NCBI GenBank assembly: GCA_018238205.1
Contig: JABCTV010000003.1
Coordinates: 323-64,322 of the forward strand
Length of the DNA stretch: 64,000 bases
Source: Candidatus Thorarchaeota archaeon
GTDB lineage: Archaea > Asgardarchaeota > Thorarchaeia > Thorarchaeales > Thorarchaeaceae
Reading direction: 5' to 3'
Shown here: piece after piece, positions 1 through 64,000 of the stretch
Layout of the letters: every line of letters begins with the position of its first letter
Numbering within the stretch: the first letter of the stretch is position 1
Translations under genes and position numbers: made by a program
Notes under the pieces: model-generated
What the model was told of the DNA's origin: nothing
Databases searched by the model: none
The model's input: the letters and a program-made list of their open reading frames with translations, nothing else

Positions 1-498
1 GACATCGGCAACACACAGGGTAGTATTGAAACTATGCATCGTGCAGTACGTGTGGACAATGGACTGTCACAGACCCTTGTCCTGTTCAATAGGGCAGTGG
101 TCATGCCCCTGAATATTGGTGACGAGCTGTGGGCTGTAGGGAAACGCGAGCCAGCAGGAAGATTCCGTGCTATGGCAGTGGTGGTTCCATCACTACAAAT
201 GTATGCGGACCTAACAACCGAATCTGGTTTCCTAGGGTCGATCAAACTGCATGTACTCATTTCAGTCATGATTGGATTGGTGGGGTACGTCCTCTATGCT
301 CAGGTAGAGTCTTGGCACCAACTTTCCCAGTATATCCTCGGTCTTGTACTAATGGCACTCAGTTTCATACTGTTGACCACAGGGTTGTGTATGAAGCTGG
401 TTTTTGGAATTTCCGAAGTCAGAGGTAGTAGAGTCAGCGCTAGTGATTGGTTCATGATCGAGAAGGTCTTTGGTCGGACTGACCAATTAGTTGCGTGA
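1..498 (+). CDS. hypothetical membrane protein, 5' end probably outside window
   Basis: Frame 1 is open from base 1 to the stop at 496-498. The C-terminal half has hydrophobic helices (LISVMIGLVGYVLYA, ILGLVLMALSFILLTTGLCM). No family recognised. Confidence 0.4.
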   Translation, partial: DIGNTQGSIETMHRAVRVDNGLSQTLVLFNRAVVMPLNIGDELWAVGKREPAGRFRAMAVVVPSLQMYADLTTESGFLGSIKLHVLISVMIGLVGYVLYAQVESWHQLSQYILGLVLMALSFILLTTGLCMKLVFGISEVRGSRVSASDWFMIEKVFGRTDQLVA

Positions 499-8025: not shown

Positions 8026-8550
8026 ATGAGAACAGAGATTCGACTTGCAGGTACTGGTGGCATGGGTGTAGTTCTTGCAGGAGTCATCCTAGGTCACGCG
8101 GCTGTGACATATGCGGGTCTTGAAGCAATCCAGAGTCAAAGCTATGGTTCTGAAGCCCGTGGGACGGCTGCTAAGAGTGAAGTGATAATCAGCGATGAAC
8201 CAATCAAGTATCCAAAGGTACGTGAATCAGACTACTTCATTGTAATGTCCCAGAAAGCCCTAGAGATGTACCTAAGTGGAGCCAAGAAAGGAAGTGTGGT
8301 TCTCGCAGACCCTGACCTTGTTAATATTGATGATATCGAAGGTTATGAGGTCGTAGAAGTTCCTGCAATGAAGACTGCTGATGCAATGGGTATGAGGCTT
8401 GTATCCAACATGGTAATGCTTGGAGCTTTTGTGAAAAAGTCTGGAGTTTTTCCAATTGAAGTCTTGGAAAAGACGCTGGCTGCGTTCGTAAGTGCAAAGT
8501 ATCTACAAGTTGATATTGACGCAGTTCGTGCTGGCGCTAAGCTAGTTTAG
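8026..8550 (+). CDS. 2-oxoacid:ferredoxin oxidoreductase, gamma subunit
   Basis: Starts 6 nt after the beta gene. N-terminus IRLAGTGGMGVVLAGVILG and the segment QSYGSEARGTAAKSEVIIS are typical of the gamma subunit family. Confidence 0.8.
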   Translation: MRTEIRLAGTGGMGVVLAGVILGHAAVTYAGLEAIQSQSYGSEARGTAAKSEVIISDEPIKYPKVRESDYFIVMSQKALEMYLSGAKKGSVVLADPDLVNIDDIEGYEVVEVPAMKTADAMGMRLVSNMVMLGAFVKKSGVFPIEVLEKTLAAFVSAKYLQVDIDAVRAGAKLV

Positions 8551-8879
8551 CCTCCATGGACTAGGGGTACGATTGTAAGAATATCTCCATCCTTCAATGT
8601 TGTTTTGAGACCACCTGTAACTCCGATATCAACCTCATTACAGAGAATCATAGAATCACGGTCAATTTCTGCAGGTTTCTTCCATATACTTTGTAGATAG
8701 GAGTTCTGCTCAATTATCTTAACAAACAAATTATTGAGTATGAAACCGTTTTCTATCTCCATCTCCAGAGTCCCGTTCTCTATTTCTCGTGCAATTGGTC
8801 CCCGAAATCTGACTGTGATTTTCATAGTACGTACCGCTCGTTTTGGTCGAGGGAATGCTTGATAAATTACTTGCTTCAT
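8547..8879 (-). CDS. MoaD/ThiS-type ubiquitin-like small protein ending in Gly-Gly (SAMP-like)
   Basis: The C-terminus is DGDILTIVPLVHGG followed by a stop. The probable true start is MKITVRFRGP at nt 8825, giving about 92 aa. Confidence 0.65.
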   Translation of the reverse strand: MKQVIYQAFPRPKRAVRTMKITVRFRGPIAREIENGTLEMEIENGFILNNLFVKIIEQNSYLQSIWKKPAEIDRDSMILCNEVDIGVTGGLKTTLKDGDILTIVPLVHGG

Positions 8880-10439
8880 GCTGGAGTGTTAACCTCTATA
8901 TGGGAAGACCGTAGGTTGAACATTATGGCTGTGGATTGTGAAACTGAAACAACTCCAGAGGTGGTTTCAAGCAGGTTCGCTCGCATTTTTGGTCTAGAAG
9001 ACCCAACACCTGACGCCGTGCGCTATGTCAAAATAATCTCAGTCTTACTACCAGCTTTTGCACTCAGCTTCCAAATCAGCACTACTTTCTGGATGATCCA
9101 TATGGCTGAAACACTCGGAGGCGGTGACTACTTTGCAGGTCTAACGCTTGTTGGGTTCCTAGTGGTTATCCAGATGGCAGTTCAGACGGCATTAGATTAT
9201 CCAACCGGTGCACTTGGGGACGCAATAGGACAACGTTATGTCATTGCTTCAGCTCTCCTCTGCTACGCGATAGCTTTCTATCTATCTTCACAGATTATTA
9301 TCGGTACCCCATTCTATATCTACGTGGCCATTTACGCCCTCTTTGGGTTGGGTTCGTCGCAGGAGAGTGGCGCCTTCAGTGCGTGGTTTGACAATAATTA
9401 CAAGGTTGCCATGCCTCATGACAAGGACCGAAAGCAGTACGGTGTGTTTCAAGGTCGACTGGGTATGGTTTGGCAGGTGTCTTCGACACTTGTGCTGATT
9501 CCTGGGTCTTGGCTTGCTTGGTTATACAGCCGTCAATTTGTCTTCGGGCTTCAAGCTATATTTGCAATCTTCCTTGCCATAGTAGTTCTGAAACTTGTAA
9601 AGGACTTGCCTGGAGTTAGAGAGGCGAAAGATGAGAAACCCACCCTCTCAGAATACACGACTCTCTTGAAAGATGGATTCAAGTTTCTATGGTCAAGTCG
9701 GTTTGTAACTCTGCTTATTCTCGGTGAAGTAGTGATGTGGAGTACTTCTCCTGTTTGGTGGAATTTACTTTTGTTCCCACTTTACTTTAGTTTCCTTGTC
9801 ACAATGGTTGCAGTTTCAGCCTTCCGAACGCTTGTGTTTCTCCCTCAAGCGGTAGCAAATGAAAGAAGTGGTGTTCTAGCTAAGAGATTCGAACCAAAGA
9901 AATGGATTCCACGTTTCAGGTTGCTCCAGTTCATGGGGGTGATTTTCTACTTGATATTAGCAGCAATTGTACACTTCTTCCCAGGAATTGAACCAGGAAC
10001 TGACCCCGCAAGTATTGAATTCTTGAGCATAATGATCCCCTTCACAAATCTTCCTTTGATTGAGATACCTACTGTGACTCTAGTGCCAGTATTTCTCATG
10101 TTTCTGGCATTCATTTCCTTCAACCTGTTTGGGGGAATTGCAGGGATTCTCACTCAACGAGTCATGCTGGATGTCATTCCAAACCGGATTCGAAACTCAA
10201 TGTATTCATTGCAACCCACTTTGATTATGTTGGTTTCAATGCCTCTCATCGCATTCTTCGGGTGGTTTATCCCCTTCACTGGAGGATTCACATGGACTTT
10301 CATCATCTGTGCTTTCATTTCTCTCTTGGGTACATTGATGATTTGGCAGGCATTCAAACATCCTATACCTAAAGCAGAAGCAGTTGTTAAAGCGGATGAA
10401 ACCGAAACTGAGGATGTCCAAGAGATGGATATAACTTAG
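8859..10439 (+). CDS. MFS-type membrane transporter
   Basis: About 12-14 hydrophobic helices with an MFS-like loop (DYPTGALGDAIGQRY). The likely start is MAVDCETE at nt 8925. Substrate unknown. Confidence 0.55.
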   Translation: MINYLLHAGVLTSIWEDRRLNIMAVDCETETTPEVVSSRFARIFGLEDPTPDAVRYVKIISVLLPAFALSFQISTTFWMIHMAETLGGGDYFAGLTLVGFLVVIQMAVQTALDYPTGALGDAIGQRYVIASALLCYAIAFYLSSQIIIGTPFYIYVAIYALFGLGSSQESGAFSAWFDNNYKVAMPHDKDRKQYGVFQGRLGMVWQVSSTLVLIPGSWLAWLYSRQFVFGLQAIFAIFLAIVVLKLVKDLPGVREAKDEKPTLSEYTTLLKDGFKFLWSSRFVTLLILGEVVMWSTSPVWWNLLLFPLYFSFLVTMVAVSAFRTLVFLPQAVANERSGVLAKRFEPKKWIPRFRLLQFMGVIFYLILAAIVHFFPGIEPGTDPASIEFLSIMIPFTNLPLIEIPTVTLVPVFLMFLAFISFNLFGGIAGILTQRVMLDVIPNRIRNSMYSLQPTLIMLVSMPLIAFFGWFIPFTGGFTWTFIICAFISLLGTLMIWQAFKHPIPKAEAVVKADETETEDVQEMDIT

Positions 10440-10449
10440 ACCATCTGGG

Positions 10450-11403
10450 TTACATGCCTAACGATTTCTTTAGGACTTCAGGATTAAGTTTGCCCGCATG
10501 GAAAACTTTCCCACACTCAATGTGGTTGATTGTGATTTCTGCAGGACTAAAGAGTAGAGGATCTACCTTGTAGAAATCATATTCAAAGCTCTTGAAGAGG
10601 TCATAGAAGGGCTGACCATACTGATCCGATGTTGACGACGGGACCTTATCCACAATCTCTTGCAAATTATCATCTTCCGACCTTACAAAATAGGTTGTCC
10701 GTCCACCATAGAGAATGCAATCATTAGTCACTCCCATTGCTCTATTATCATTCTTCGCAACTGGTGCAATGGGCGCCACACCAAACCCTCTTCTTACACG
10801 TTCAGGGTCAAAACCAATCTCGTGGAGTTTGTGCATGCCCACCTCAACAATTCTAGATGATATTTGAACTGACCCTGCTATGCTTGCTGTGGGTACTACA
10901 ATGCAGTACAGGTTTGAAGTGGAAATTCCACATTTCTTAGCAATATATTCTGTAACCTCTTCATTGGGTTTTACTCTACTCTCTAGCACTATGACTCCCT
11001 TTTTCGATTTATCTTTGTAATCTAACTCTTCATACAGTTTCTTTTCTACTTGAGCCAAAGCTCTAGCCGGACCTGAACCCATTGCAAAGTATTTTCCAAC
11101 TTTGATGGTCCATCCTGAATATTGTGAACCAAGAGTAGAAATCTTTGGATAGTCTGTTCCTACAATTACTGCAGGTAATTCGAGGTCTCCGATATACATC
11201 ATGTTTAGCTTGACTGAACCAAGCCCTCCCAAACACACCTCTCCGATGAGTCTTCCAAGCTCTGCACTACCCGTACACTCAATTCCAGCATCAATTATCT
11301 TTGCACCATTATTGCTCTCTTCCACTCTACAATCTAGAGCATCCTTACTATCCATTATTGTCTTGATAGTCTTTAGAGCTCCTTTATTCACACTGTGACT
11401 CAT
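10450..11403 (-). CDS. mch: methenyltetrahydromethanopterin cyclohydrolase
   Basis: 317 aa. The N-terminal region SVNKGALKTIKTIMD...IIDAGIECTGSAELGRLIGEVCLGGLG and the overall length match Mch. It overlaps the upstream fwdC-like gene by 4 nt. Confidence 0.85.
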   Translation of the reverse strand: MSHSVNKGALKTIKTIMDSKDALDCRVEESNNGAKIIDAGIECTGSAELGRLIGEVCLGGLGSVKLNMMYIGDLELPAVIVGTDYPKISTLGSQYSGWTIKVGKYFAMGSGPARALAQVEKKLYEELDYKDKSKKGVIVLESRVKPNEEVTEYIAKKCGISTSNLYCIVVPTASIAGSVQISSRIVEVGMHKLHEIGFDPERVRRGFGVAPIAPVAKNDNRAMGVTNDCILYGGRTTYFVRSEDDNLQEIVDKVPSSTSDQYGQPFYDLFKSFEYDFYKVDPLLFSPAEITINHIECGKVFHAGKLNPEVLKKSLGM

Positions 11404-12281
11404 TTCCTAACCTCCGAGAGCAAGTGTGTGTTTGAAAAGGCACGTATGTAAATCTCTTCGTTTGTATCAGCTTCTGCAAAATCTCCGATGAACTTCATCC
11501 ATTTATCGCTTGTATCAATATCCTCTCTCAAAAAATCTGGCCTTCGAGACCTCAGATAACGAAGATAGTAGTTCACAATCGCTCTCTCAGATGTACCACT
11601 ATACTTGTAGGTGGGTAACATCATTTCGAGTTTTCCAAGGCAGATAATCATCCCTCTTGTTGCCTGGATTCCCATGCGTTCTGTGACATTTCCCACAACG
11701 ATTATGGTACCCCCCATTATTCTAACAGCGCTTGGTGAGCTGACGTTCCCTTTTACTGCGAGGAATCCTTTTCGCATATGAGCTGCCATCTCCCGACCTA
11801 CGTCACCTGCAACATAGACTCGCCCGCCTTGCATTCCATCCCTACTTCCCCGATATCCTGCACAGAGATAATCTCCTGCATCTCCCTCTATCTGGATATT
11901 ACCACCTTTCATTTCAGCAGCTGCCCATGCATCCACTGATTCTTTCACATGAATTCTCCCAGATACCATCTCTGCACCAAGATACATACCTGCATTTCCT
12001 TCGACAGTGATTTTACCACCGTTCATAGATTTCCCTATCATCTTGACTTTTCGCAAATCCCCCTTGATAACAATCTCAGTATCAGCAGGGGTCTTCCCCG
12101 CTTTCCCTGTGATTTTAAAGAATTCCTTGAGAATTAGCGTCTGATTTCCATGGTGAATTGATAGGTTGCCTATCTGTGTGACAGTCTTCCCTGCAAAATG
12201 ACTAGGTGTTATGCAATCAGCCTCGATTGGAATATCTAGAGATTCCTTCAGTTCCAGGATAACAGTCATGGTTTCCAGCAA
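11400..12281 (-). CDS. fwdC: formylmethanofuran dehydrogenase subunit C-like protein
   Basis: Repeated Gly-rich beta-helix units (ITVEGNAGMYLGAEMVSGRIHV, NIQIEGDAGDYLCAG, GGRVYVAGDVGREMAAHMRKG, GGTIIVVGNV) characteristic of FwdC/FmdC and the GltB C-terminal domain. Confidence 0.75.
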   Translation of the reverse strand: MLETMTVILELKESLDIPIEADCITPSHFAGKTVTQIGNLSIHHGNQTLILKEFFKITGKAGKTPADTEIVIKGDLRKVKMIGKSMNGGKITVEGNAGMYLGAEMVSGRIHVKESVDAWAAAEMKGGNIQIEGDAGDYLCAGYRGSRDGMQGGRVYVAGDVGREMAAHMRKGFLAVKGNVSSPSAVRIMGGTIIVVGNVTERMGIQATRGMIICLGKLEMMLPTYKYSGTSERAIVNYYLRYLRSRRPDFLREDIDTSDKWMKFIGDFAEADTNEEIYIRAFSNTHLLSEVRK

Positions 12282-43823: not shown

Positions 43824-44121
43824 GGTATTTCTAATGGTAAAAAAGACAGTTATCAAGGTGGATTATTCCAAGTGTCATACCGGAGCAAGCACCGACCCTC
43901 GCGATTGTAGAAAATGTCTTCTAATATGTGACCCCGCAGTATTTCTTATGCATCCTACGTTAGAGGATGACCATCCAGACCCTCATAATCCTGAGATTTG
44001 GAGAATTGATCCGATTTGGCTTTCAAAGTGTACTGGTTGTATGAAGTGCGTGGAAGCATGTCCTGAACAGGCAATTACGGTTATTCCAGGGACTTCACTT
44101 CATGAGATGAAGGCACGCTGA
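43789..44121 (+). CDS. small ferredoxin-like Cys-rich protein
   Basis: CRKCLLIC and CTGCMKCVEACP motifs. The likely start is MVKKTVIKV at nt 43834. Its 3' end overlaps the convergent gene 44081..45073 by 41 nt. Confidence 0.5.
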   Translation: MMKFQDKQESTEVFLMVKKTVIKVDYSKCHTGASTDPRDCRKCLLICDPAVFLMHPTLEDDHPDPHNPEIWRIDPIWLSKCTGCMKCVEACPEQAITVIPGTSLHEMKAR

Positions 44122-45073
44122 GCGTAGTTATTGGTCTTGACTGAAGAATTACAAGGCCGCCATCGGGACGAATACACCATTCGATATCCTGAGGGGATTC
44201 CATGCCACTTTCGACTTTCATTCCAACATCCGCAATATCGAACAGCGTTTGCTCATCCAGAGAAAATTCAGATTGTTTGTTCGTTGGAGTTTTTGATATG
44301 GTTGGTTGATCTCTCGCAGGCAGAGAGGTGAATTCTTTCCCACCTAAAACACGTTGAATCACACTCAGTGGATTCTTAGTCAGAATGTATGTATCAGGCA
44401 CTATTTTCCCTGAAACTAAAGAATCACCTAGGCCCCACGTTGCATTGATCAAAATCTCTTCAGTATTATTATTAACAACATTAGCGGTAAACATCACGCC
44501 CGAGATATCTGCTGGAATCATTTCCTGAATTATAACAGCCATCTTGACCTGTTTCATGGGAATTTTTTTGGTCTTTAGATAGATGACCGCACTTTCCGAA
44601 AACGCCGATTGCCATACCCTCTTTACCGATTCAAGGATGTCCCTTTGATTCTCCACGCAGAGAAAACTCTCCGCCTGTCCAGCAAACGAGATATCGATAC
44701 GATCCTCGATTGTTGCTGAAGAACGTACAGCGAAACCAATCTCACTGTTCTTAGTTATCTCTTGGAGGTGTTTGAACTTTTCAAAAATTTCAGTTTCCAG
44801 AATCTCAGGTAAGCTGTAGTTTCCTATTATTTCCTGTAAACTAGCAGAAATCTCAATTATCTTTTCAAAATCATCAGAATCGTCTATTATTTTTAGCAAG
44901 CTAACAAGATCTTGATTACTCTCTACCATTTGGACAAATGCATTACTGGAAATGGAAAGACTTCTTGGAACACGAAATCCCAAATGTGCCAATTTCGCAA
45001 GATTTGCTGCCTTTCCTCCATGAATTTCAACATCTTTTGGTTGAATGTCTTCAAGAGAGTGAACCATTTGCAA
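44081..45073 (-). CDS. PEP/pyruvate-binding (PPDK N-terminal ATP-grasp) domain protein
   Basis: The segments GGKAANLAKLAHLGFRVPRSLSIS, AVRSSATIED, AGQAESF and VIIQEMI are the nucleotide-binding domain signatures of PEP synthase, PPDK and RPH. Confidence 0.75.
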   Translation of the reverse strand: MQMVHSLEDIQPKDVEIHGGKAANLAKLAHLGFRVPRSLSISSNAFVQMVESNQDLVSLLKIIDDSDDFEKIIEISASLQEIIGNYSLPEILETEIFEKFKHLQEITKNSEIGFAVRSSATIEDRIDISFAGQAESFLCVENQRDILESVKRVWQSAFSESAVIYLKTKKIPMKQVKMAVIIQEMIPADISGVMFTANVVNNNTEEILINATWGLGDSLVSGKIVPDTYILTKNPLSVIQRVLGGKEFTSLPARDQPTISKTPTNKQSEFSLDEQTLFDIADVGMKVESGMESPQDIEWCIRPDGGLVILQSRPITTLSVPSSHEVKSLE

Positions 45074-57433: not shown

Positions 57434-58207
57434 CTATTTCTTCTCTGTCTTAAACACAGCAAAGAAGGGTATACGCCGCTCCCTGTCAAAGAATGGGTTG
57501 TCATCCAAAGGTCGAGGCTCCCTGAAATCTACAAGATTAAATCCAGTAGTAACAAGAGAATTCAGATAGGTAGCTAAGGTCCTATGGAAGAAGCTTATGG
57601 GTGCTGGGAACTTCTCCCCTTTTCTTGTTCTCCAATATCTCTCGAATTCTTCTTCATCAAAATAATTGTCTACTTTGAAGAACAATCCCTCTCTTCTATT
57701 CGTATCAGGGTCCTTTTCTCCCATTTCCCATGCACCAGGTCCATAGAAATTGAATGCTGGGTGTACAATCGAAAAAACAAGATGACCCCCCGTTTTTAGA
57801 ACACGATTGTATTCCTTGAGGGCAACAACAAGATCTGGTATATTCAATAACACAAGATTAGACAATACGATATCAAACGTTTCATTCGGAACGGATTCAA
57901 TATGACAGACATCACCAACTCTATAGTCTACTTCAAGACTTTCGCTGTCTGTTATCATCTTAGAAGTTTCAATCAAACTTGGAGAAAGATCAATTGCTGT
58001 TACATCTGCTCCTTTCTTAGTGTAATATCTAGCTAGGTATCCTTCACCACACCCAGCATCAAGCAGACTCTTTCCTTTGACATCTCCAAGTAGCTCTTCA
58101 ACACACGGATTGAGGATGCTCTCATGATGTGGAGTCCCTGTTCCTGCAATGAGATCCGCAAATGCTTCAGCATTGTCTTCCCATTGCTTCTGAATCCTGT
58201 CTACCAT
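57434..58207 (-). CDS. class I SAM-dependent methyltransferase
   Basis: Motif I LLDAGCGEGYLARY, followed by AIDLS and FDIVLSNLVL. Confidence 0.8.
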   Translation of the reverse strand: MVDRIQKQWEDNAEAFADLIAGTGTPHHESILNPCVEELLGDVKGKSLLDAGCGEGYLARYYTKKGADVTAIDLSPSLIETSKMITDSESLEVDYRVGDVCHIESVPNETFDIVLSNLVLLNIPDLVVALKEYNRVLKTGGHLVFSIVHPAFNFYGPGAWEMGEKDPDTNRREGLFFKVDNYFDEEEFERYWRTRKGEKFPAPISFFHRTLATYLNSLVTTGFNLVDFREPRPLDDNPFFDRERRIPFFAVFKTEKK

Positions 58208-58252
58208 GTTTTAGAGAAATGTATAGGGACTTCTGAATCTTTCGACTACATT

Positions 58253-58654
58253 CTAGATTTTATCCCATACTTTGCGAACTCGTTTTCCGGTTTCTTCAAT
58301 GACTGAGGCCATTGCATCCTCGGAAGCAAGCCCTAACTCAGAAGCTACTCTCATGATTGAAGTGTGAGATACCATGACTTTACCTTCATCTTCGTATACT
58401 ACAAAGCTACAAGGGAAGAGCGTTCCAACATCCTTTGAAGCATCTAATCCCATTTTTGCAAGTTCTGGTGCGCACGCAAGGACAGTCGTATATCGTGGAT
58501 AGTCAATTCCAAGTTTCTGTTTGAAGATATCTTCTATTCCCTTAGTAAGCAGGAGACCAAATCCTTCACTAGCAAGCGCTTCTTCAGCTCTCTTCACTGT
58601 TTCATCAAATGTATGGGATGATTCCTTACGTAAAACGTCGACCATGCTATACAA
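58253..58654 (-). CDS. DUF302-like protein
   Basis: 133 aa. The pattern FGLLLTKGIEDIFKQKLGIDYPRYTTVLACAP resembles DUF302. Confidence 0.55.
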   Translation of the reverse strand: MYSMVDVLRKESSHTFDETVKRAEEALASEGFGLLLTKGIEDIFKQKLGIDYPRYTTVLACAPELAKMGLDASKDVGTLFPCSFVVYEDEGKVMVSHTSIMRVASELGLASEDAMASVIEETGKRVRKVWDKI

Positions 58655-58746
58655 TATAATTCACTATTGTTAAATTACTTTCCATTAGACCTGAAATCTC
58701 AACCAATCAAAATATGAGGTAGTTAGAAATTAGAAGATTATGGTGG

Positions 58747-59937
58747 TTGGTAGTGACCCCTGAAGACTCAATCTCAACGGAAGATGAAATCGAGCGGAAT
58801 CCAGCACATGTTTTTGGAGCTGCGTCATTTCTTAATGATACCGGATCGGACATGATTGCACCCATCTGGCCGACCTTTCTTACTACTCAGCTTGGATTGA
58901 GTCCGGGTCAAGTACAGATGGTTGATGGATTAGCACTGATGATTGCCTCACTCTCTAAGCTAGGTGCAGGGTATGCTTCTGATAGAACGGGAAAGAGAAA
59001 GGCCTTCATTACATTAGGATATGCAATGTCATCTCTTGCGCGGATTGGATTTGTTCTAGCAACCTTAGGATACCAGTTCTTTCAGATAGTGCTCTGGAAA
59101 TCTATGGACCGATTAGGTAAGATACGTGGACCACCCCGTGATGCTATTGTTGCAGGTCATTCAACTGAGAAGAACCGGGGACGTGCATTTGGTGTACTGA
59201 GAGCACTCGATACAGCAGGTGCAGTTCTTGGAACGATAATCACATTCCTACTTTTCCAATACATTGGATATAATGGAATTATCCTGTTAGCGGTCATACC
59301 AAGCCTTGGTTCAGTAATCATAGTTTCCGTTTTTATCAAAGAAAAGCGTGGAAAAGATATTTTCAAGGGCGTCAATTTTCGAGGTCTTGATAATAATCTG
59401 AAAGTGTTTCTGGCGGCCTCTGTATTATTGTCACTTGCTACATTCAGCTATTCACTATTGATCCTCTTTTCCGCAGATTATGGATATTCAGTCCCGCAGC
59501 AGACGCTTCTCTATCTCTTGTTTACAGTTGTGTATGCAGTGACCGCTTACCCCTTTGGAAGACTATCTGATAGAGTGGGTAGAAAACCAATTTTGGTCAC
59601 AGCTTTTCTTTTTCTTATATTGACCTCACTTTGGGCTTACTTCTTTGTCTTTGATATGTTTACAATTATTCCTCTCTTCATCTTCTTTGGATTGATGAAT
59701 GGAGCATTAGATCCAGTTCAGACCAGCTTTGTGTCTGATTTGGTAGAAGAAGAGCGGCGGGCAAGTATCATTGGAGCTTTTCAGATGGCGGTTGGGATCT
59801 CTGCATTTCCAGCTGGAATTATTATAGGTTATCTATGGGACTCAATCAATCCCCTTGCAGCATTTCAATATTCGATTGTTCTCACATTCTTTGCATTGGT
59901 ACTTCTACTACTAATAAGAACAAAACGCATAGAATGA
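58747..59937 (+). CDS. MFS transporter
   Basis: 12 TM helices. MFS loop motifs GYASDRTGKRK and GRLSDRVGRKP. Its last ~63 nt are duplicated at 61618-61683. Confidence 0.75.
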   Translation: MVVTPEDSISTEDEIERNPAHVFGAASFLNDTGSDMIAPIWPTFLTTQLGLSPGQVQMVDGLALMIASLSKLGAGYASDRTGKRKAFITLGYAMSSLARIGFVLATLGYQFFQIVLWKSMDRLGKIRGPPRDAIVAGHSTEKNRGRAFGVLRALDTAGAVLGTIITFLLFQYIGYNGIILLAVIPSLGSVIIVSVFIKEKRGKDIFKGVNFRGLDNNLKVFLAASVLLSLATFSYSLLILFSADYGYSVPQQTLLYLLFTVVYAVTAYPFGRLSDRVGRKPILVTAFLFLILTSLWAYFFVFDMFTIIPLFIFFGLMNGALDPVQTSFVSDLVEEERRASIIGAFQMAVGISAFPAGIIIGYLWDSINPLAAFQYSIVLTFFALVLLLLIRTKRIE

Positions 59938-59994
59938 AAATGGTGGACCGGGGGGGATTTGAACCCCCGACCTTCTGATTGCGAACCAGACAAT
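59875..59994. repeat. 120-nt direct repeat, copy A (MFS gene 3' end plus the 3' 54 nt of tRNA-Ala)
   Basis: Aligned by eye to 61618..61737. The tRNA-derived 54 nt are identical. The other 66 nt differ at 6 positions. Confidence 0.9.
59941..59994 (-). pseudogene. truncated tRNA-Ala(CGC) copy (positions 23-76 only)
   Basis: Identical to the 3' 54 nt of the intact gene at 61684..61760. Beyond 59994 the sequence diverges (TTCTTTGC versus CTACCGGG), so the 5' acceptor and D arm are missing. Confidence 0.85.
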
Positions 59995-60048
59995 TTCTTT
60001 GCTTTTGATATAGGATAAATATAGTCCATCAATGATCTAGTGGATGGC

Positions 60049-60741
60049 CTAATCAAATGGTGTTGCACTTAGCTGGACAGCATATGGATAGACAAGTTTT
60101 GCACGAGCTATTACAGATTCTTTCTTTTTCGGCACTTCTGCATGATTATTGACACGGAAACAGGGAATAGCACTCTTCATACGCCATCGGCCACGAAGTT
60201 CCCACCCATTGATATCCTCTTCAATCATCATCCGGTATGGTTTTAGATCAATCCACACTTTCTCTGTCGGATCAGTGAACAACTCAAGGTCTTCAATAAG
60301 CAATCCATAGTAGGAAGTTGAGGGAGAAAGACCGCTGCCCGTTGGATATCTTTCTGGAAATAGTTCCAGCCCTCGTACATGCGGTTTCAAATATCGCCAA
60401 GCGCCTTTCTTAGGACCTAGGTCAAACTTCTGACGTAGAGTTTTGTTTTTGCATCCTTCACACCATGCATCATATGCCTTGCTGATTGGAGAAAACAAAA
60501 CATCAATACTAGATGGTTTTTCAGACATACTAGAAATATGGCGCTCAAGTAACATACGTACTGAATCAGGTGTGTAAGCACGTTCATAACCAAAGGGATA
60601 GAAAGCGTCGGGATTATCTACCTTTTCTGCTTCATATTGCGCCTTTATCCTTGGTAGAATGCTTGTTATTTTTTCACCATAGTATCCAACTTTCATTACA
60701 ATGATTATATCAGAAAATGATTCCATTATTATCACTCCCAT
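60049..60741 (-). CDS. hypothetical protein (islet cargo B)
   Basis: 230-aa ORF, 62 nt downstream of cargo A on the same strand. No motif recognised. The start is possibly MESFSD. Confidence 0.5.
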   Translation of the reverse strand: MGVIIMESFSDIIIVMKVGYYGEKITSILPRIKAQYEAEKVDNPDAFYPFGYERAYTPDSVRMLLERHISSMSEKPSSIDVLFSPISKAYDAWCEGCKNKTLRQKFDLGPKKGAWRYLKPHVRGLELFPERYPTGSGLSPSTSYYGLLIEDLELFTDPTEKVWIDLKPYRMMIEEDINGWELRGRWRMKSAIPCFRVNNHAEVPKKKESVIARAKLVYPYAVQLSATPFD

Positions 60742-60803
60742 CCATTAGTTGAAAGGACAACGCGATAGAAAAGTATTTGGCATAACTTTATTTATATCGT
60801 GAG

Positions 60804-61346
60804 TCAATCAGCACAATCGTTGAATAGAGATAGCATTTTACGTTGGTTCAGTGAAAGTATGGTTCGATGGTTTCGCTTCTCCGGATAAATTTCTGCTTGA
60901 GTCCAAAGCTCTTTTCGTAGACTCATTTCTCGTTTTATCTTACGGTCATTTACAGTGAAGTCTTTCTTGAGCTCTTTATAATCAAACAAGTATACATTGT
61001 GGATACACCAAGGAAGTAATTTTCCAGACTGATCTCTTGATCCTGCAAGTACGAGATAGATATCAGCTGGTGCATCATGGTTTATATCAAGCACTTTGGG
61101 AATTGTATACATTTTGACATTGACAGTCAATCCCCCTAAGGCACCCCACTTGAACTTGCCATCTATACCCGTATTGGTCCTTGACGTTTCCAACGTAATC
61201 CCGAATACTCTCGCTGCAATATACTCACCAACATTCCCAATCAAAGCAGGTGTGTCTATCTTCTTTGATATTTTTCTTGCAACATCGTTTCGCATCTTGA
61301 CAAGTTTGGCAAGACTACGTAACTCTTTCATTGAGTCACTGCTCAT
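60804..61346 (-). CDS. hypothetical protein with PD-(D/E)xK nuclease-like motif layout (islet cargo A)
   Basis: The segments GEYIAARVFGITLE, TGIDGKF, LTVNVKMY and DIYLVLAG occur in the order expected of a restriction-endonuclease-like core. The call is tentative. Confidence 0.45.
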   Translation of the reverse strand: MSSDSMKELRSLAKLVKMRNDVARKISKKIDTPALIGNVGEYIAARVFGITLETSRTNTGIDGKFKWGALGGLTVNVKMYTIPKVLDINHDAPADIYLVLAGSRDQSGKLLPWCIHNVYLFDYKELKKDFTVNDRKIKREMSLRKELWTQAEIYPEKRNHRTILSLNQRKMLSLFNDCAD

Positions 61347-61617
61347 TAGATTGATCTCATTATAGTCAATGTACTTGTTGTAATAAATTAACCCCAGCTT
61401 GAACCCAAGGAATTTTACTGTGTATTATACCTAGGGTGAATGGAAAAGTAGATTCGTGGCTTAGTTTGTAAAATACCCTCAATACACAAAACTTTCAATC
61501 GTTCTCCTTTGACAAGAGTCTATTGCATTATAAGGGGAGAGAAATTTTCGGCCCCGAGTATCTTCTGTAAAGAAAAACAGATTTAATATTGTATTTTCAA
61601 GGAAGCCCTGTACTCCC

Positions 61618-61737
61618 ATTGTTCTCACATTCTTTGTATTGATACTTCTACTACAAATAAGAACAAAAAGCACAGAATGAAGATGGTGGACCGGGGGGGA
61701 TTTGAACCCCCGACCTTCTGATTGCGAACCAGACAAT
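61618..61737. repeat. 120-nt direct repeat, copy B
   Basis: See copy A. This copy is contiguous with the 5' 23 nt of tRNA-Ala. Confidence 0.9.
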
Positions 61738-61760
61738 CTACCGGGCTAATCTACCGGCCC
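61684..61760 (-). tRNA. tRNA-Ala(CGC), intron-less, CCA encoded
   Basis: Hand-folded. Acceptor GGGCCGG/CCGGTCC with the G3-U70 identity pair. Anticodon arm TCTGG-TTCGCAA-TCAGA, giving anticodon CGC. T arm GGGGG-TTCAAAT-CCCCC. Discriminator A followed by CCA. Confidence 0.9.
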
Positions 61761-61814
61761 AATCTAGAAAGACGTGCCCGTTAGATTTCTTAAAACCTTG
61801 CCTGATTGGTTATT

Positions 61815-62108
61815 TTAGATATCAATTCCAAAGGCTTCAGAGAATCTCTCTATTCTAATAAACTCCCGTAGAAATTCTCGACCCTTCTCCGTGAGATAGT
61901 ATGTTCGGTTGTTACTGTTAGGGTCTTCTTCTAAAATGAGTTCTTTGTTCACAAGCTCGTCAATATACTGTTTCAATCTATCGTGGGATAAATTAGCGGC
62001 ATAGAGTATTTTTGTTGGTCCCGCACCTTCTTCTCCTTCACTCTGAATGGCACGCATCATATCAGCTAAGATGCGCATCTTTGAGCGATAGGCGCGTTTT
62101 CTACTCAT
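61815..62108 (-). CDS. small winged-helix DNA-binding protein
   Basis: 97 aa. The segment PTKILYAANLSHDRLKQYIDELVNKELILEE...YYLTEKGREFL is a wHTH pattern. It overlaps the upstream membrane-protein gene by 1 nt. Confidence 0.55.
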   Translation of the reverse strand: MSRKRAYRSKMRILADMMRAIQSEGEEGAGPTKILYAANLSHDRLKQYIDELVNKELILEEDPNSNNRTYYLTEKGREFLREFIRIERFSEAFGIDI

Positions 62109-62758
62109 TAGTCTCGTCCAGCCTTGATTAGCATGACTAAAAGTGACAAGAAACCCAATAGTTGAGCACCTTGACTCATTAGATAGAGTCCAGGAGCTGC
62201 AGCTACGGGAGCCGTAGCTACTTGAGCCATCCAGATATGACTCAATAGGAGTAAAATGAACCCAACCAAGACATAGCGGGCAAATTTACTCCCTGTCGAC
62301 AGGTAGTTCAATATTGATTGAAGAACTACTACAATAAGTACCATTATTGCGATGATTTCGAGAGAAGGATCAACAAGGAACGTTGCCATTAATAGCAAAC
62401 TTATTCCTGACCCATTCGACCTATTCTGATTTTCTTGATTATCTAATGTGTGCGAAGGTCTTATTGATATGAAAAAGAGAATGTATGCCAATATTCTGGA
62501 TACACCATAGGCAATCGTGACTATTGATATAATCAGATGACTGCCTTCGCCACCAAACTGGATGAAGAAATACCACGTACCAATTACTCTTCCAAACATA
62601 CCAGCTGAAAGCACGAGAAATCCCGTTGAGAGATCTGACAGTTTCTTTTGACCGGTAAGACGGTACGCCTTTGTTGCATAGTATGTTACAATCAAAGCGA
62701 TTATTCCACTAATCGTTTCGAAGAGTAAGTCCAATCTGATTAAACCTATTACTTGCAT
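62108..62758 (-). CDS. hypothetical polytopic membrane protein
   Basis: 216 aa with ~7 hydrophobic helices. Co-transcribed with the wHTH gene. Confidence 0.5.
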   Translation of the reverse strand: MQVIGLIRLDLLFETISGIIALIVTYYATKAYRLTGQKKLSDLSTGFLVLSAGMFGRVIGTWYFFIQFGGEGSHLIISIVTIAYGVSRILAYILFFISIRPSHTLDNQENQNRSNGSGISLLLMATFLVDPSLEIIAIMVLIVVVLQSILNYLSTGSKFARYVLVGFILLLLSHIWMAQVATAPVAAAPGLYLMSQGAQLLGFLSLLVMLIKAGRD

Positions 62759-62886
62759 ATGGCGACGCCTGTCCTATTCTTGTCAATTTAGGTCTTATTG
62801 GTAATGGATGAATCATCTAGCTTTTTGGCTGATTCGGTGATGAAATAATCTGAAAATTTGATGGTTTTCGCGGATATTTCTTCTAG

Positions 62887-63510
62887 ATGAATCATCTAGT
62901 GCAATCGTTCATTCTGCCTATATATACAAGATTCGTAGATTTCTTCGTGCAAAATATGAAACGCGCCAAGAAAACATTGACACTTATTTCCGCATTAGCC
63001 CTCGTTTTCATCATTGCGTTCCCGTTGATAACTACAACAGTGGACGCAGCTTCCGTCCTTGAAACAAAAGCCGCCGCCACCGCCAGTATTGGGGATACAT
63101 TTGAGATTCTGGCAAGGGGTCGTGGCGGCTTCACCATTGAAGATATGGACGACTTCGAGGCTGATTACTTGACACGAATGGATCTTGACTTCAAAATAAC
63201 TCGAAGGGGTGAACGTGGAGTCTTACTTGAAGTACTCGATGGCCATTTCTCATTGAATGATACGACCTTTGATTTCGATGAAGGCCTAGGTATCGCAGGT
63301 CGCCCTGAGGAAGGCAAGTTCAATGGAACTATTGTCTTTGGTTTTAGAATCAATGTAACTGGTCCTAACGGTGAAGAAGCCCAACTTGGATTCAGGGGAT
63401 TTGTTAAGCGCACAGAAGAACGTGGTCCACTCCTTCTCATGCAAGGAAGACTGGTTCTTGATGATCAGGTCTTTGTGTTTAGACAAATAGGTATAATTCA
63501 CAGGATCTAA
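62887..63510 (+). CDS. hypothetical secreted protein
   Basis: The likely start is MKRAKKTLTLISALALVFIIAFPL at nt 62959, a signal peptide. No family recognised. Confidence 0.45.
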   Translation: MNHLVQSFILPIYTRFVDFFVQNMKRAKKTLTLISALALVFIIAFPLITTTVDAASVLETKAAATASIGDTFEILARGRGGFTIEDMDDFEADYLTRMDLDFKITRRGERGVLLEVLDGHFSLNDTTFDFDEGLGIAGRPEEGKFNGTIVFGFRINVTGPNGEEAQLGFRGFVKRTEERGPLLLMQGRLVLDDQVFVFRQIGIIHRI

Positions 63511-63611
63511 ACTATGATGGAAGTTACCGACAACTGCAAGATGAGCGGGCAGGTCATACCTGCTTAGCTTTGAATGGCGGGGACAACCCCGCCCTTCCAT
63601 CGCCTTTTTCT

Positions 63612-64000
63612 CTATTCATTATTATTATCGAGTTTTGCTTCAATTTTATCCAGACGATCTTTGAGGTCTCTATTTTCTTTCTGGAGTTCCTCGATACTCT
63701 TTTTCAGTGAATCAATTTCCTTGGGTTGTTTCTTTTTACCAAGCTTTCTTATCGCAACTCGTGCATCTCGAACTATTCCACTATCAGCGGCTCGTTCTGC
63801 CAGTTTTGATAGTGTAGGTATCAATGAAGCATCTTCATACAATGAAGTAGCACCGATGGAAAATTGTTGAACTCTGTATGAATTATCCAGAATAGAGTTC
63901 TCCAAAATCGAACGAATTTCCGGATGATCTTTCTTGAAACGTTTTCCAAGGCGAGCAAGAATGCCCGGAATGTGTCGCCTGATCCAATCGCTTGTTCCAA
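63612..64000 (-). CDS. hypothetical protein with HEAT-like repeats and a C-terminal coiled coil, 5' end outside window
   Basis: The reading frame stays open from 63905 up to the window edge. The segment RDARVAIRKLGKK resembles a HEAT/PBS-lyase repeat end. The C-terminal KKSIEELQKENRDLKDRLDKIEAKL is a coiled coil. Confidence 0.4.
   Translation of the reverse strand, partial: GTSDWIRRHIPGILARLGKRFKKDHPEIRSILENSILDNSYRVQQFSIGATSLYEDASLIPTLSKLAERAADSGIVRDARVAIRKLGKKKQPKEIDSLKKSIEELQKENRDLKDRLDKIEAKLDNNNE

What the first reader, a model, noticed from the sequence alone, without database searches (positions are those of the whole stretch)
59875..61760. 1.74-kb insertion in tRNA-Ala(CGC) bounded by 120-nt direct repeats that extend into a neighbouring coding gene
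Repeat A (59875..59994) and repeat B (61618..61737) are co-linear. The 54 nt corresponding to tRNA-Ala positions 23-76 (minus strand, including CCA) are identical in both copies. The remaining 66 nt correspond to the 3' end of the MFS gene 58747..59937 and differ at 6 positions by my eye alignment. Only copy B continues into the 5' 23 nt of the tRNA (61738..61760). The tRNA is therefore intact at one end of the insert and truncated at the other, which is the classical footprint of site-specific integration into a tRNA gene. Three things are unusual. The repeat is long. It includes protein-coding sequence downstream of the tRNA, and that part has diverged while the tRNA part has not. No integrase or recombinase lies between the repeats. 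One reading is that the incoming DNA carried an att region captured from a related genome with the same MFS/tRNA-Ala synteny.
Basis: partly seen in the sequence, partly recalled or inferred. Interest (0 to 1): 0.7.

Follow-up and report, generated by a model that had tools for sequence, protein, structure and literature searches.

The report
Integrase-less mobile cassette in tRNA-Ala
A 1.74-kb two-gene DNA cassette without its own integrase has recently inserted into a tRNA-Ala gene of a Thorarchaeota (Asgard archaeon) genome, and it carries a 66-nt scrap of a previous host's transporter gene that records where it came from.

Summary
Repeats 59875-59994 and 61618-61737 are co-linear (114/120 identical). 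The 54-nt tRNA part is identical in both, and all 6 mismatches lie in the 66-nt MFS part. Only copy B continues into an intact tRNA-Ala(CGC).

The host is a Thorarchaeota MAG. Two conspecific contigs (L027, L022; 97-99.9% identical flanks) have the empty MFS|tRNA-Ala|HTH junction. They differ from the window by exactly one 1743-bp insertion plus the 120-nt duplication. Their single copy equals copy A, so the MFS part of copy B is foreign.

The same cassette, still carrying the MFS scrap, sits in the same tRNA of another species (L001-L003). There the cassette is 96.9% identical but the backbone only 80.5%, and the neighbouring gene is DsrE, not MFS. The scrap therefore travels with the element.

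The cargo is a 180-aa protein with a PvuII/NhoI-like restriction-endonuclease fold and a 225-aa orphan protein. No recombinase was found in the element or in the 30 window ORFs scanned.

Best reading: a non-autonomous integrative cassette, moved in trans by an unidentified recombinase crossing over in the anticodon stem-loop. In another genome a different integrase-less cassette (a Type IIG restriction-modification gene) occupies the same site.

This is real and tidy, and a new variant of a known kind. Interest is moderate.

The parts
58747..59937 (+). Host MFS transporter gene, intact. Its last 63 nt form the left part of repeat copy A.
   Evidence: Pfam MFS_1 E 1.8e-44. More than 800 orthologues, many named Thorarchaeota. 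It is 100% identical in protein sequence (P0016) to the MFS of the empty-site contig L027.
59875..59994 (.). Repeat copy A (attL): host MFS 3' end (59875-59937), a 3-nt spacer, and the displaced 3' 54 nt of tRNA-Ala (59941-59994, minus-strand sense).
   Evidence: Over the 66 MFS nt it is identical to the single copy in empty alleles L022 and L027.
59975..59991 (-). Inferred crossover interval in attL. It corresponds to tRNA positions 27-43 (anticodon stem-loop); the equivalent interval in attR is 61718-61734. Intersecting with the L011 cassette's repeat narrows it to positions 38-43, AATCAG (59975-59980 / 61718-61723).
   Evidence: In L001 the left fragment is host-type (identical to the native L023 tRNA) from position 27 to CCA. 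It differs at positions 24 and 26. The L011 repeat starts at position 38. This is an inference, not a measurement.
59995..61617 (-). Body of the inserted element (1623 bp). With one repeat copy the insertion is 1743 bp.
   Evidence: Absent from L027, L022, L023, L013 and L014. It is 96.9% identical to L001/L002/L003, where the backbone is 80.5% identical.
60049..60726 (-). Cargo gene 2: a 225-aa orphan protein. An alternative start at 60741 gives 230 aa.
   Evidence: No Pfam, PHROG, PADLOC or NCBIfam hit. 14 homologues and 18 representatives in 1.84 billion proteins. AF2 pLDDT 83 (2 of 5 models) with no PDB or BFVD neighbour. 98.2% nt identity to L001, with 7 synonymous and 4 non-synonymous codon changes.
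60804..61346 (-). Cargo gene 1: a 180-aa protein with a PD-(D/E)XK restriction-endonuclease-like fold and a weak DUF6998 match.
   Evidence: Pfam DUF6998 at 23.1 bits, below the cutoff of 27. AF2 pLDDT 78. Foldseek PDB hits to the Eco15I N-domain (E 1.7e-5), PvuII (4.6e-4) and NhoI (2e-3), probability 1.0. 98.3% nt identity to L001, 6 synonymous / 3 non-synonymous.
61618..61683 (.). Element-borne 66-nt copy of an MFS gene 3' end, the 'passport' of a previous host. It is the left part of repeat copy B.
   Evidence: 6 mismatches to the host copy. It is also present next to the tRNA in L001-L003, where the host has no MFS at this locus. The encoded tail is closest to other lineages' MFS.
61684..61760 (-). 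Intact tRNA-Ala(CGC). Its 3' 54 nt (61684-61737) are the tRNA part of repeat copy B (attR); its 5' 23 nt (61738-61760) are unduplicated host sequence.
   Evidence: ARAGORN; Rfam tRNA 62.4 bits.
61815..62108 (-). Host flank: HTH_45 winged-helix gene. In empty alleles it is separated from MFS only by the tRNA.
   Evidence: Pfam HTH_45 E 5.4e-21. Synteny in L013, L022, L023 and L027.

Best explanation
The segment 59995-61737 is a small non-autonomous integrative element, a mobile cassette. It entered the chromosome as a circle by a single reciprocal crossover between its own att region and the host tRNA-Ala(CGC) gene.

The att region has two parts: the 3' 54 nt of a tRNA-Ala, and 66 nt of a former host's MFS gene end. 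The crossover lay in the tRNA part, most likely in the anticodon stem-loop. After integration the host's own MFS end and displaced tRNA 3' half sit on the left (copy A). The element's MFS scrap and tRNA 3' half sit on the right, fused to the host tRNA 5' part (copy B). The tRNA therefore stays intact.

The element encodes no recombinase. I infer that integration was catalysed in trans by a site-specific (tyrosine-type) integrase of another element or of the host.

The 66-nt MFS scrap was picked up earlier. The most likely route is imprecise excision from a related Thorarchaeota genome with the MFS|tRNA-Ala arrangement. It has been carried along since, including into a species that has DsrE at that position.

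The cargo is a restriction-endonuclease-fold protein plus an orphan partner, plausibly a defence or addiction module.

Shown: the insertion, its exact borders, within-species polymorphism, cross-species spread, the foreign origin of the scrap, and the absence of a recognisable recombinase.
Inferred: the recombinase, the crossover position, the capture route and the cargo function.
For: Clean insertion.
- Conspecific empty alleles L027 and L022 differ from the window by exactly 1743 bp plus the 120-nt duplication.
- Against L027 the flanks have 2 mismatches in 1696 nt on the left and 0 in the ~600 nt right of the tRNA. All 6 repeat mismatches are confined to the MFS part of copy B.

Mobility.
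- The element is 96.9% identical between the window and L001/L002/L003, against 80.5% for the backbone.
- High identity stops at the att borders, 59932 and 61760.
- Three independent assemblies carry it.

The scrap travels with the element.

Crossover position.
- The left fragment in L001 is identical to a native variant tRNA (L023 type) from position 27 to CCA.
- The functional tRNA in L001 has the element-type 3' half. That is the pattern expected from a fixed crossover 5' of position 44.

The site is reused.
- L011 is 97% identical to the doubly empty L006.
- It carries a different 3.7-kb, single-gene, integrase-less insert (Type IIG REase-MTase, PADLOC E 6.5e-246) between the same tRNA and a 3' fragment starting in the anticodon loop.

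No recombinase.
- Nothing in the element.
- No integrase family in 30 mid-size ORFs of the window.

The genes look functional: coding regions are 98.2-98.3% identical, intergenic regions 90-95%, and synonymous changes outnumber non-synonymous ones.
Against: - No helper integrase, no autonomous relative with the same att, and no circular form was found. The viral-contig scan for the att gave 0 hits. The metagenome scan gave only 5 loci.
- The crossover mapping assumes that the two differences at tRNA positions 24 and 26 in L001 belong to the element rather than to that host's native tRNA. No empty site of the L001 lineage was available to test this.
- RadA-type homologous recombination over the 54-120 nt of homology would leave the same product in the window.
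- The defence role of the cargo rests on fold similarity of one protein. PADLOC finds nothing.
Confidence: 0.62

Rival explanations
1. Campbell-type insertion by general homologous recombination. A circular or end-repeated linear copy of the cassette, taken up from another cell, recombined with the chromosome through the 120 nt (window) or about 54 nt (L001) of shared sequence. No site-specific enzyme was involved.
For: The window's repeats offer 120 nt at 95% identity, including 54 identical nt. No integrase was found. The product is indistinguishable from site-specific integration in the window itself.
Against: In L001 the host tRNA 3' half differs from the element's at positions 44, 48 and 69. 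All three segregate to the left copy. The exchange would therefore have had to fall within a 17-nt identical patch or at the very edge of homology. A second, unrelated cassette (L011) shares only positions 38-76 with the tRNA and used the same site. The anticodon loop is the classical tyrosine-integrase core (PMC8371274).
Confidence: 0.2
2. In-situ remnant. A larger integrase-bearing element integrated at the tRNA and later lost everything except two cargo genes. On this reading the present 1.74-kb unit has never moved as such.
For: Decay of integrated elements and gene capture are common in archaea (PMC8371274, the section on horizontal gene transfer). There is no recombinase in the unit.
Against: The same 1.74-kb unit with the same internal borders, including the MFS-scrap/body junction, occurs in two species that are about 80% identical in backbone. 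It is 97% identical between them, and each copy is flanked by its own host-type left fragment. Identical independent decay is implausible, so the deletion must have preceded at least one transfer. That makes the short unit mobile. The flanks next to the insert are identical to the empty allele, so the insertion is recent.
Confidence: 0.1
3. Autonomous mini-element. One of the two cargo proteins, most plausibly the 225-aa orphan or the nuclease-fold 180-aa protein, is an unrecognised recombinase that integrates the cassette itself.
For: The 225-aa protein has a fairly confident model (pLDDT 83, pTM 0.85, though only 2 of 5 models) with no structural neighbour. Both genes are under purifying selection. 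PD-(D/E)XK enzymes can act in recombination.
Against: Homologues of the 225-aa protein in L004, L018, L019 and L021 have other neighbours and no tRNA or tRNA fragment nearby. None has flanking direct repeats derived from a target. The L011 cassette uses the same site with neither protein. Distant 180-aa homologues sit as single genes inside bacterial prophage-like contigs.
Confidence: 0.04
4. Assembly artefact. The contig is a chimera that joins an empty MFS|tRNA-Ala genome to an element-bearing genome through the shared tRNA sequence.
For: The window probably comes from a metagenome assembly. L003 and L012 both end at or near the tRNA, which shows that assemblers struggle at this locus.
Against: The left junction (…CAGACAAT|TTCTTTGC…) exists in neither the empty alleles nor L001 (…CAGACGAC|TTCTCTGC…). 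The window's element differs from L001's at 57 positions, so no known pair of sequences could produce it. The equivalent architecture is assembled independently three times.
Confidence: 0.03

Closest known systems
CIMEs (cis-mobilizable elements) and other non-autonomous att-flanked islands of bacteria, e.g. those related to the ICESt1/ICESt3 family in streptococci (reviewed in PMC5704250; my own knowledge for details)
   Same: A short DNA segment bounded by attL and attR of a tRNA- or gene-end-targeting integrase. It has no integrase or excisionase of its own, carries a few cargo genes, and is presumed to move by borrowing another element's recombinase.
   Different: Those are bacterial, and their helper ICEs are known and share the att. 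Here the host is an Asgard archaeon and no helper or autonomous relative was found. Cross-species spread of the short unit is shown only by comparative genomics.
Archaeal tRNA-integrating elements with tyrosine integrases (pNOB8-type, SSV-type 'suicidal', pT26-2/pTN3 families; review PMC8371274) and 'cryptic integrated elements' of Thaumarchaeota (PMC6563490)
   Same: [quoted passage not shown] The att is defined by attL/attR identity. Att sites longer than 100 bp (102 and 243 bp) are already reported in Thermococcales. Restriction genes are common cargo.
   Different: Those elements encode their integrase, which in the SSV type is split by the att. This one encodes none. The ORFs crossing its att are short and frameshifted in L001. 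The extra att length here is demonstrably a piece of a neighbouring host coding gene.
Aberrant (imprecise) prophage excision as in lambda gal/bio specialised transduction (textbook knowledge)
   Same: It explains how DNA lying next to the attachment site in a former host becomes a permanent part of the element, adjacent to its att.
   Different: No phage or packaging is involved as far as can be seen. Only 66 nt were captured. The event itself is inferred, not observed.
Integron gene cassettes, including the archaeal integrons reported by Ghaly et al. 2022 (my own knowledge)
   Same: One- or two-gene units without their own recombinase are inserted at a fixed docking site. Different cassettes (this one, and the Type IIG gene in L011) occupy the same site in different genomes.
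   Different: There is no attC-type imperfect hairpin, no adjacent IntI and no array. The recombination site is tRNA-derived. Membership was tested and not met.
PvuII / BisI-family (NhoI, Eco15I) PD-(D/E)XK restriction endonucleases
   Same: The predicted fold of the 180-aa cargo protein matches them (Foldseek E 1.7e-5 to 2e-3, probability 1.0, TM 0.4-0.48). It is small and has no adjacent methyltransferase, as in modification-dependent enzymes.
   Different: Sequence identity is 12-18% and there is no sequence-level hit. The canonical (D/E)xK is read here as D62…N76-x-K78, so activity is uncertain. The 225-aa partner has no counterpart in those systems.

Membership tests
tRNA-targeting integrative element (Campbell-type site-specific integration) | An intact tRNA at one end and a direct repeat of its 3' part at the other end of the insert | tested here: met
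   tRNA 61684-61760; 3' 54 nt repeated at 59941-59994 with 0 mismatches.
tRNA-targeting integrative element (Campbell-type site-specific integration) | An unoccupied attB with a single copy of the repeat in close relatives | tested here: met
   L027, L022, L023, L013 and L014 are empty, and the flanks overlap by exactly 120 nt. L006, L008, L009 and L010 are empty in DsrE-type genomes.
tRNA-targeting integrative element (Campbell-type site-specific integration) | An element-encoded integrase next to the att | tested here: not met
   Two ORFs only, with no integrase family in Pfam, PHROGs, PADLOC or NCBIfam. The predicted folds are REase-like or without a neighbour.
tRNA-targeting integrative element (Campbell-type site-specific integration) | An excised circular form carrying attP | not testable with these tools
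   No reads are available. No contig with the circular junction turned up in the scans.
Non-autonomous att-flanked element (CIME-like) | Flanked by attL/attR but lacking recombination and transfer genes | tested here: met
Non-autonomous att-flanked element (CIME-like) | A related autonomous element or helper that uses the same att and supplies the integrase | tested here: inconclusive
   None was found among the 5 metagenome loci, the 1 reference genome or the viral contigs. No integrase in the 30 window ORFs scanned. The rest of the genome was not available.
Non-autonomous att-flanked element (CIME-like) | Evidence that the short unit itself has moved | tested here: met
   The same unit is 96.9% identical in a species whose backbone is 80.5% identical, with that host's own tRNA fragment on the left. 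It is present or absent within one species.
SSV-type ('suicidal') integrase element | An integrase ORF that spans attP and is split into Int(N) and Int(C) at the two ends on integration | tested here: not met
   The ORFs crossing the att sites are 67 and 85 aa and would fuse to about 111 aa. Neither has a family hit where tested. The right-hand one is frameshifted in L001/L002.
Integron gene cassette | An attC imperfect-palindrome site at the cassette end and an IntI/attI platform nearby | tested here: not met
   No inverted repeat at the element ends. The recombination site is tRNA sequence. No integrase in the neighbourhood.
Insertion sequence / transposon | A transposase, terminal inverted repeats and a short target-site duplication | tested here: not met
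   No transposase, no terminal inverted repeats, and a duplication of 120 nt that includes foreign-type mismatches.
PD-(D/E)XK type II/IV restriction endonuclease (180-aa protein) | The restriction-endonuclease-like alpha/beta core fold | tested here: met
   Foldseek: Eco15I-N E 1.7e-5, PvuII 4.6e-4, NhoI 2e-3, probability 1.0. The model has pLDDT 78.
PD-(D/E)XK type II/IV restriction endonuclease (180-aa protein) | The catalytic D…(D/E)xK motif | tested here: inconclusive
   The alignment shows near-invariant D62, invariant K78 and near-invariant N76 on adjacent strands, plus E41. An Asn replaces the usual acid.
PD-(D/E)XK type II/IV restriction endonuclease (180-aa protein) | A cognate methyltransferase (type II), or demonstrated modification dependence (type IV) | tested here: not met
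   No methyltransferase in the cassette. Modification dependence cannot be tested here.

The most novel reading that the evidence does not exclude
The tRNA-Ala(CGC) gene of Thorarchaeota may be a dedicated docking site for a pool of tiny, recombinase-free defence cassettes. Examples are the REase-fold + orphan pair here and the Type IIG restriction-modification gene in L011. Each cassette would carry nothing but a tRNA-derived att, and all would be shuffled between species by one trans-acting recombinase that cuts at AATCAG in the anticodon loop. Functionally this would be an integron-like cassette system built on a tRNA gene. A second class of element (giant gene + TnpB) would dock on the 5' side of the same tRNA.
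Probability: 0.15. Interest if true: 0.7.

Novelty: new variant of a known kind. Interest (0 to 1): 0.42.

Why it matters
Very little is known about how genes move between Asgard archaea. Published integrated elements are proviruses, aloposons and a few integrase-bearing islands (PMC8813620, PMC11529989).

This locus gives a cleanly resolved case, with occupied and empty alleles and two host species. A two-gene unit with no recombinase of its own is nevertheless mobile across about 20% genome divergence. Its att region carries a dated fingerprint of an earlier host.

It identifies tRNA-Ala(CGC) as a variable hotspot where restriction-type genes are swapped. It also supplies two uncharacterised proteins as defence candidates, one with a restriction-endonuclease fold and one orphan with no structural neighbour. 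Finally, it defines a concrete att (core about AATCAG) with which the missing Thorarchaeota integrase could be searched for and assayed.

Tried and rejected
(1) The MFS gene as cargo of an older tandem element that replaced DsrE.
- I considered this because all the first empty sites found (L006, L008-L010) had DsrE.
- I rejected it because DUF302|MFS|tRNA-Ala|HTH_45 is a widespread native arrangement (L012-L017, L022, L023, L027). The MFS has hundreds of 75-100% identical orthologues in Thorarchaeota.

(2) An SSV-type split integrase across the att. Rejected: the ORFs are too short and are frameshifted in L001.

(3) The 225-aa protein as a known enzyme.
- Searches of Pfam, PHROGs, PADLOC, NCBIfam, a PDB sequence profile, Foldseek PDB and BFVD, plasmid collections, and Pfam on remote relatives all came back empty.
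- The 180-aa protein also has no match in the phage or plasmid collections.

(4) A conserved 180-aa + 225-aa gene pair. Rejected: homologues of the 225-aa protein have unrelated neighbours.

(5) A search for a virus or plasmid carrying the att or the cargo.
- 0 att hits in IMG/VR.
- No 225-aa relatives there.
- Only distant bacterial-prophage relatives of the 180-aa protein.

(6) An integrase elsewhere in the window. None was found in 30 ORFs of 200-500 aa. Six of these have no family at E<=1e-5 and were not pursued further.

(7) The 65-nt repeats in L019 as attC-like sites. Folding was unconvincing, and the motif is absent from the window.

(8) Import of the element together with flanking DNA by homologous recombination. 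Rejected: the flanks adjacent to the insert are identical to the empty allele. SNP clusters begin only about 600 nt away, inside other genes.

Full report
**1. The observation**

The sequence is as described.
- The repeat finder gives one long direct repeat in 58000-64000: 59875-59994 and 61618-61737, 120 nt, 95% identical, spacing 1743.
- The pairwise alignment is gap-free across the repeat and loses all similarity on both sides.
- The tRNA-derived 54 nt occur exactly twice in the window with no mismatch. No match appeared in any of 100 shuffles.
- ARAGORN and Rfam agree on one intact tRNA-Ala(CGC), at 61684-61760 on the minus strand.
- Copy A ends 23 nt short of the tRNA 5' end.
- The other 66 nt of copy A are the end of an MFS transporter gene (58747-59937; Pfam MFS_1 E 1.8e-44) plus 3 nt. 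Copy B differs from them at six positions.
- Two minus-strand ORFs fill the insert: 60049-60726 (225 aa, or 230 from an upstream ATG) and 60804-61346 (180 aa).

**2. Host and empty sites**

Relatives of the flanking genes and of the MFS are named Candidatus Thorarchaeota, so the window is from an Asgard archaeon.

Empty sites with the MFS arrangement:
- L027 (GCA_018238285.1) encodes an identical MFS protein and has MFS|tRNA-Ala|HTH_45 with nothing between.
  - Window 58299-59994 matches it with 2 mismatches in 1696 nt.
  - Window 61618-64000 matches it at 98.1%.
  - The two alignments overlap by exactly 120 nt.
- L022 (GCA_030606705.1) shows the same at 99.2% and 97.2%.
- L023, L013 and L014 are further empty sites, with flanks 91.7-96% identical.

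Against L027, the only differences between 61618 and 62338 are the six in the MFS part of copy B. The 600 nt to the right of the tRNA are identical.

The window therefore equals an empty conspecific allele plus one clean 1743-bp insertion that duplicates 120 nt. The single copy in L022 and L027 is identical to copy A. Copy A is host sequence, and the MFS part of copy B arrived with the insert.

**3. The element is mobile and carries the MFS scrap**

The 225-aa protein has only 14 homologues in 5.8 billion clusters. The closest (98%) lies on three independently assembled contigs: L001, L002 (213 kb) and L003.

On those contigs:
- Window 59932-61760 aligns at 96.9%.
- The surrounding backbone (tRNA synthetase, two OsmC genes, a methyltransferase, DUF302) aligns at 80.5%.
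- The neighbour of the insert is DsrE, not MFS.
- The 66-nt MFS fragment still sits between the element body and the intact tRNA.

The fragment is therefore part of the element. Its reading frame ends …IRTKSTE. This resembles MFS orthologues of other Thorarchaeota lineages (P0027, P0019) rather than the window's …IRTKRIE, and it has two private changes.

Between the two species, the coding regions of the element are 98.2-98.3% identical and the non-coding parts 90-95%. Synonymous codon changes outnumber non-synonymous ones, 7:4 and 6:3. Both genes are therefore maintained by selection.

**4. Where the exchange happened**

In L001 the left tRNA fragment differs from the element-type sequence at tRNA positions 24, 26, 44, 48 and 69.
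- From position 27 to CCA it is identical to the native tRNA-Ala of L023. That is a natural variant whose acceptor-stem change is compensated in its own 5' half.
- The functional tRNA of L001 has the element-type 3' half.

This is the pattern expected if host and element sequences were exchanged at a fixed point 5' of position 44. If positions 24 and 26 belong to the element, the exchange lay within positions 27-43, the anticodon stem-loop.

L011 gives an independent constraint.
- It is 97% identical to the doubly empty L006.
- It carries a different 3.7-kb insert at the same place: one 1065-aa gene (Pfam N6_Mtase + Type_ISP_C; PADLOC Type IIG REase-MTase, E 6.5e-246).
- The insert is bounded by the tRNA and by a 3' fragment that starts at position 38.

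If one enzyme serves both inserts, the core is AATCAG (positions 38-43). The anticodon loop is a classical tyrosine-integrase target in bacteria and archaea (review PMC8371274). This step is inference.

**5. No recombinase**

Neither cargo protein hits any integrase, transposase or recombinase model.
- The 180-aa protein is a weak DUF6998 match. Its AlphaFold model (pLDDT 78) matches the Eco15I N-domain, NhoI and PvuII restriction endonucleases (E 1.7e-5 to 2e-3, probability 1.0).
- The 225-aa protein has a reasonably confident model (pLDDT 83, pTM 0.85, but only two of five models). It has no neighbour in PDB or BFVD.
- A full HMM search of 1.84 billion representatives finds only 18 relatives of the 225-aa protein, and none of the ten scanned against Pfam shows a known domain attributable to this family.
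- The short ORFs that read across the att sites cannot be a split SSV-type integrase. They would fuse to about 111 aa, and one is frameshifted in L001.
- No integrase family appears in 30 other ORFs of the window.
- The viral-contig scan for the att found nothing, and the metagenome scan found no locus with an integrase-bearing element at this tRNA.

**6. Explanation**

The best-supported reading is a non-autonomous integrative cassette.
- It is a circle carrying att (tRNA 3' half + MFS scrap) and two genes.
- It was inserted by a single reciprocal exchange in the tRNA part, by a recombinase supplied in trans.
- The scrap is explained by one earlier imprecise excision from a genome with the MFS|tRNA-Ala arrangement. 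That excision took the displaced tRNA fragment and 66 nt of MFS along, in the manner of lambda gal/bio formation.

Rivals, with my estimated probabilities:
- Insertion by general homologous recombination (about 0.2). It gives the same product in the window but fits the L001 and L011 data poorly.
- In-situ decay of a larger element (about 0.1). It cannot explain the same short unit in two species unless the short unit itself moved.
- An unrecognised recombinase among the cargo (about 0.04). Homologues of the 225-aa protein elsewhere have no tRNA fragments or target-derived repeats around them.
- Assembly chimera (about 0.03). The left junction sequence exists in no other known sequence, and the architecture is assembled independently three times.

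**7. Comparison with what is known**

- The element works like a bacterial CIME or other att-flanked non-autonomous island (PMC5704250). It also works like archaeal tRNA-integrating elements (PMC8371274, PMC6563490), but fails their defining feature of an element-encoded integrase.
- Long att sites are not new: 102 and 243 bp are reported in Thermococcales (PMC8371274).
- New here:
  - an integrase-less two-gene unit shown to have crossed a species boundary in Asgard archaea;
  - an att whose extra length is demonstrably a fragment of a former host's coding gene;
  - reuse of the same tRNA site by another integrase-less restriction cassette.
- Published Asgard integrated elements are proviruses, aloposons, and ICE-like or defence islands in other lineages (PMC8813620, PMC11529989).

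**8. Verdict**

This is a new variant of a known kind, of moderate interest (0.42). The most novel reading still open is a tRNA-anchored, integron-like cassette platform. I put its probability at about 0.15.

Noticed in passing
L011 8288-12079 (SDBT01010476.1): The same tRNA-Ala site holds a different integrase-less insert. It is a single 1065-aa Type IIG restriction-methyltransferase gene (8521-11718; PADLOC E 6.5e-246), lying between the tRNA (8288-8363) and a 3' fragment (12030-12079) that starts in the anticodon loop. The conspecific L006 (97% identical) is empty.
   Followed up: partly
L011 715-8297; L001/L002 1-4965: On the 5' side of the same tRNA sits a roughly 7.5-kb unit with a giant ORF (1776 aa, no family or PDB hit) and a TnpB/Cas12f-like gene. 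Details:
- It abuts the tRNA with a shared flank, TCAC(T/C)AGACCAA.
- The old tRNA 5' end (GGGCCGGT) is left at L011 715-722.
- An extra GGGCCGGTAGATTAGA lies at L011 8191-8206.
- The D-loop of the L011 tRNA is of another lineage's type (L015-like).
- The unit is 87% identical between L011 and L002, against 76% for the backbone.
This suggests an element that docks on the tRNA 5' half. Compare pTN3-type 5'-half att sites (PMC8371274) and the giant-gene aloposons (PMC8813620).
   Followed up: partly
L001 4966-5042 and 6732-6794; L023 tRNA: The displaced fragment in L001 matches the L023-type tRNA, which pairs T5 with A69. The functional tRNA in L001 has C5-G69 throughout. Both halves of the working tRNA may therefore have been supplied by mobile elements, the 3' half by the cassette and the 5' half by the TnpB unit.
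   Followed up: no
L012 6180-6409 (ERZ27237543 k141_101730): In a genome whose MFS is 96% identical, the MFS gene is followed only by a roughly 22-nt imperfect tRNA 3' end (T-loop onward: TGGTGGACCAAGGGATTTGAA). Unrelated sequence follows, and the contig ends about 200 nt later. This may be a third kind of insert with a T-loop crossover.
   Followed up: no
window 58724-59929 versus L006 4840-5274: Between DUF302 and tRNA-Ala, Thorarchaeota lineages carry either an MFS transporter (the window, L012-L017, L022, L023, L027) or a DsrE-family gene (L001, L006, L009-L011). The replacement has sharp borders. Its direction and mechanism are unknown.
   Followed up: partly
L019 85-149, 1537-1601, 3122-3186 (Logan SRR30965932_38692): Three copies of a ~65-nt repeat (71-78% identical) delimit two ~1.5-kb gene blocks. 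One block holds a 71% homologue of the 225-aa protein; the other holds a FokI-cleavage-domain protein. This could be a cassette boundary or a regulatory repeat. It is not a convincing attC, and the motif is absent from the window.
   Followed up: partly
window 60049-60726: The 225-aa protein belongs to a very rare family: 18 representatives in 1.84 billion proteins. It has conserved motifs (MKVG, PFGY, IDVxFSP, AIPC) and a model with no structural neighbour. Its homologues sit near RAMP/PemK (L004) or FokI-like (L019) genes, which points to a possibly new defence-associated fold.
   Followed up: partly
window 44756-44851: ARAGORN calls a 96-nt tRNA-Cys with anticodon ACA. It lies inside an ORF with a strong PPDK_N match (44081-45073, E 4.3e-79), so it is probably a false positive.
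   Followed up: no
window 62339-62771 and 63265-63511: Against the otherwise near-identical L027, SNPs cluster in two genes to the right of the tRNA: the DUF7521 membrane protein and a 207-aa protein. About 600 nt next to the tRNA and the 1.7 kb to its left are nearly free of SNPs. This looks like mosaic recombination within the population.
   Followed up: no
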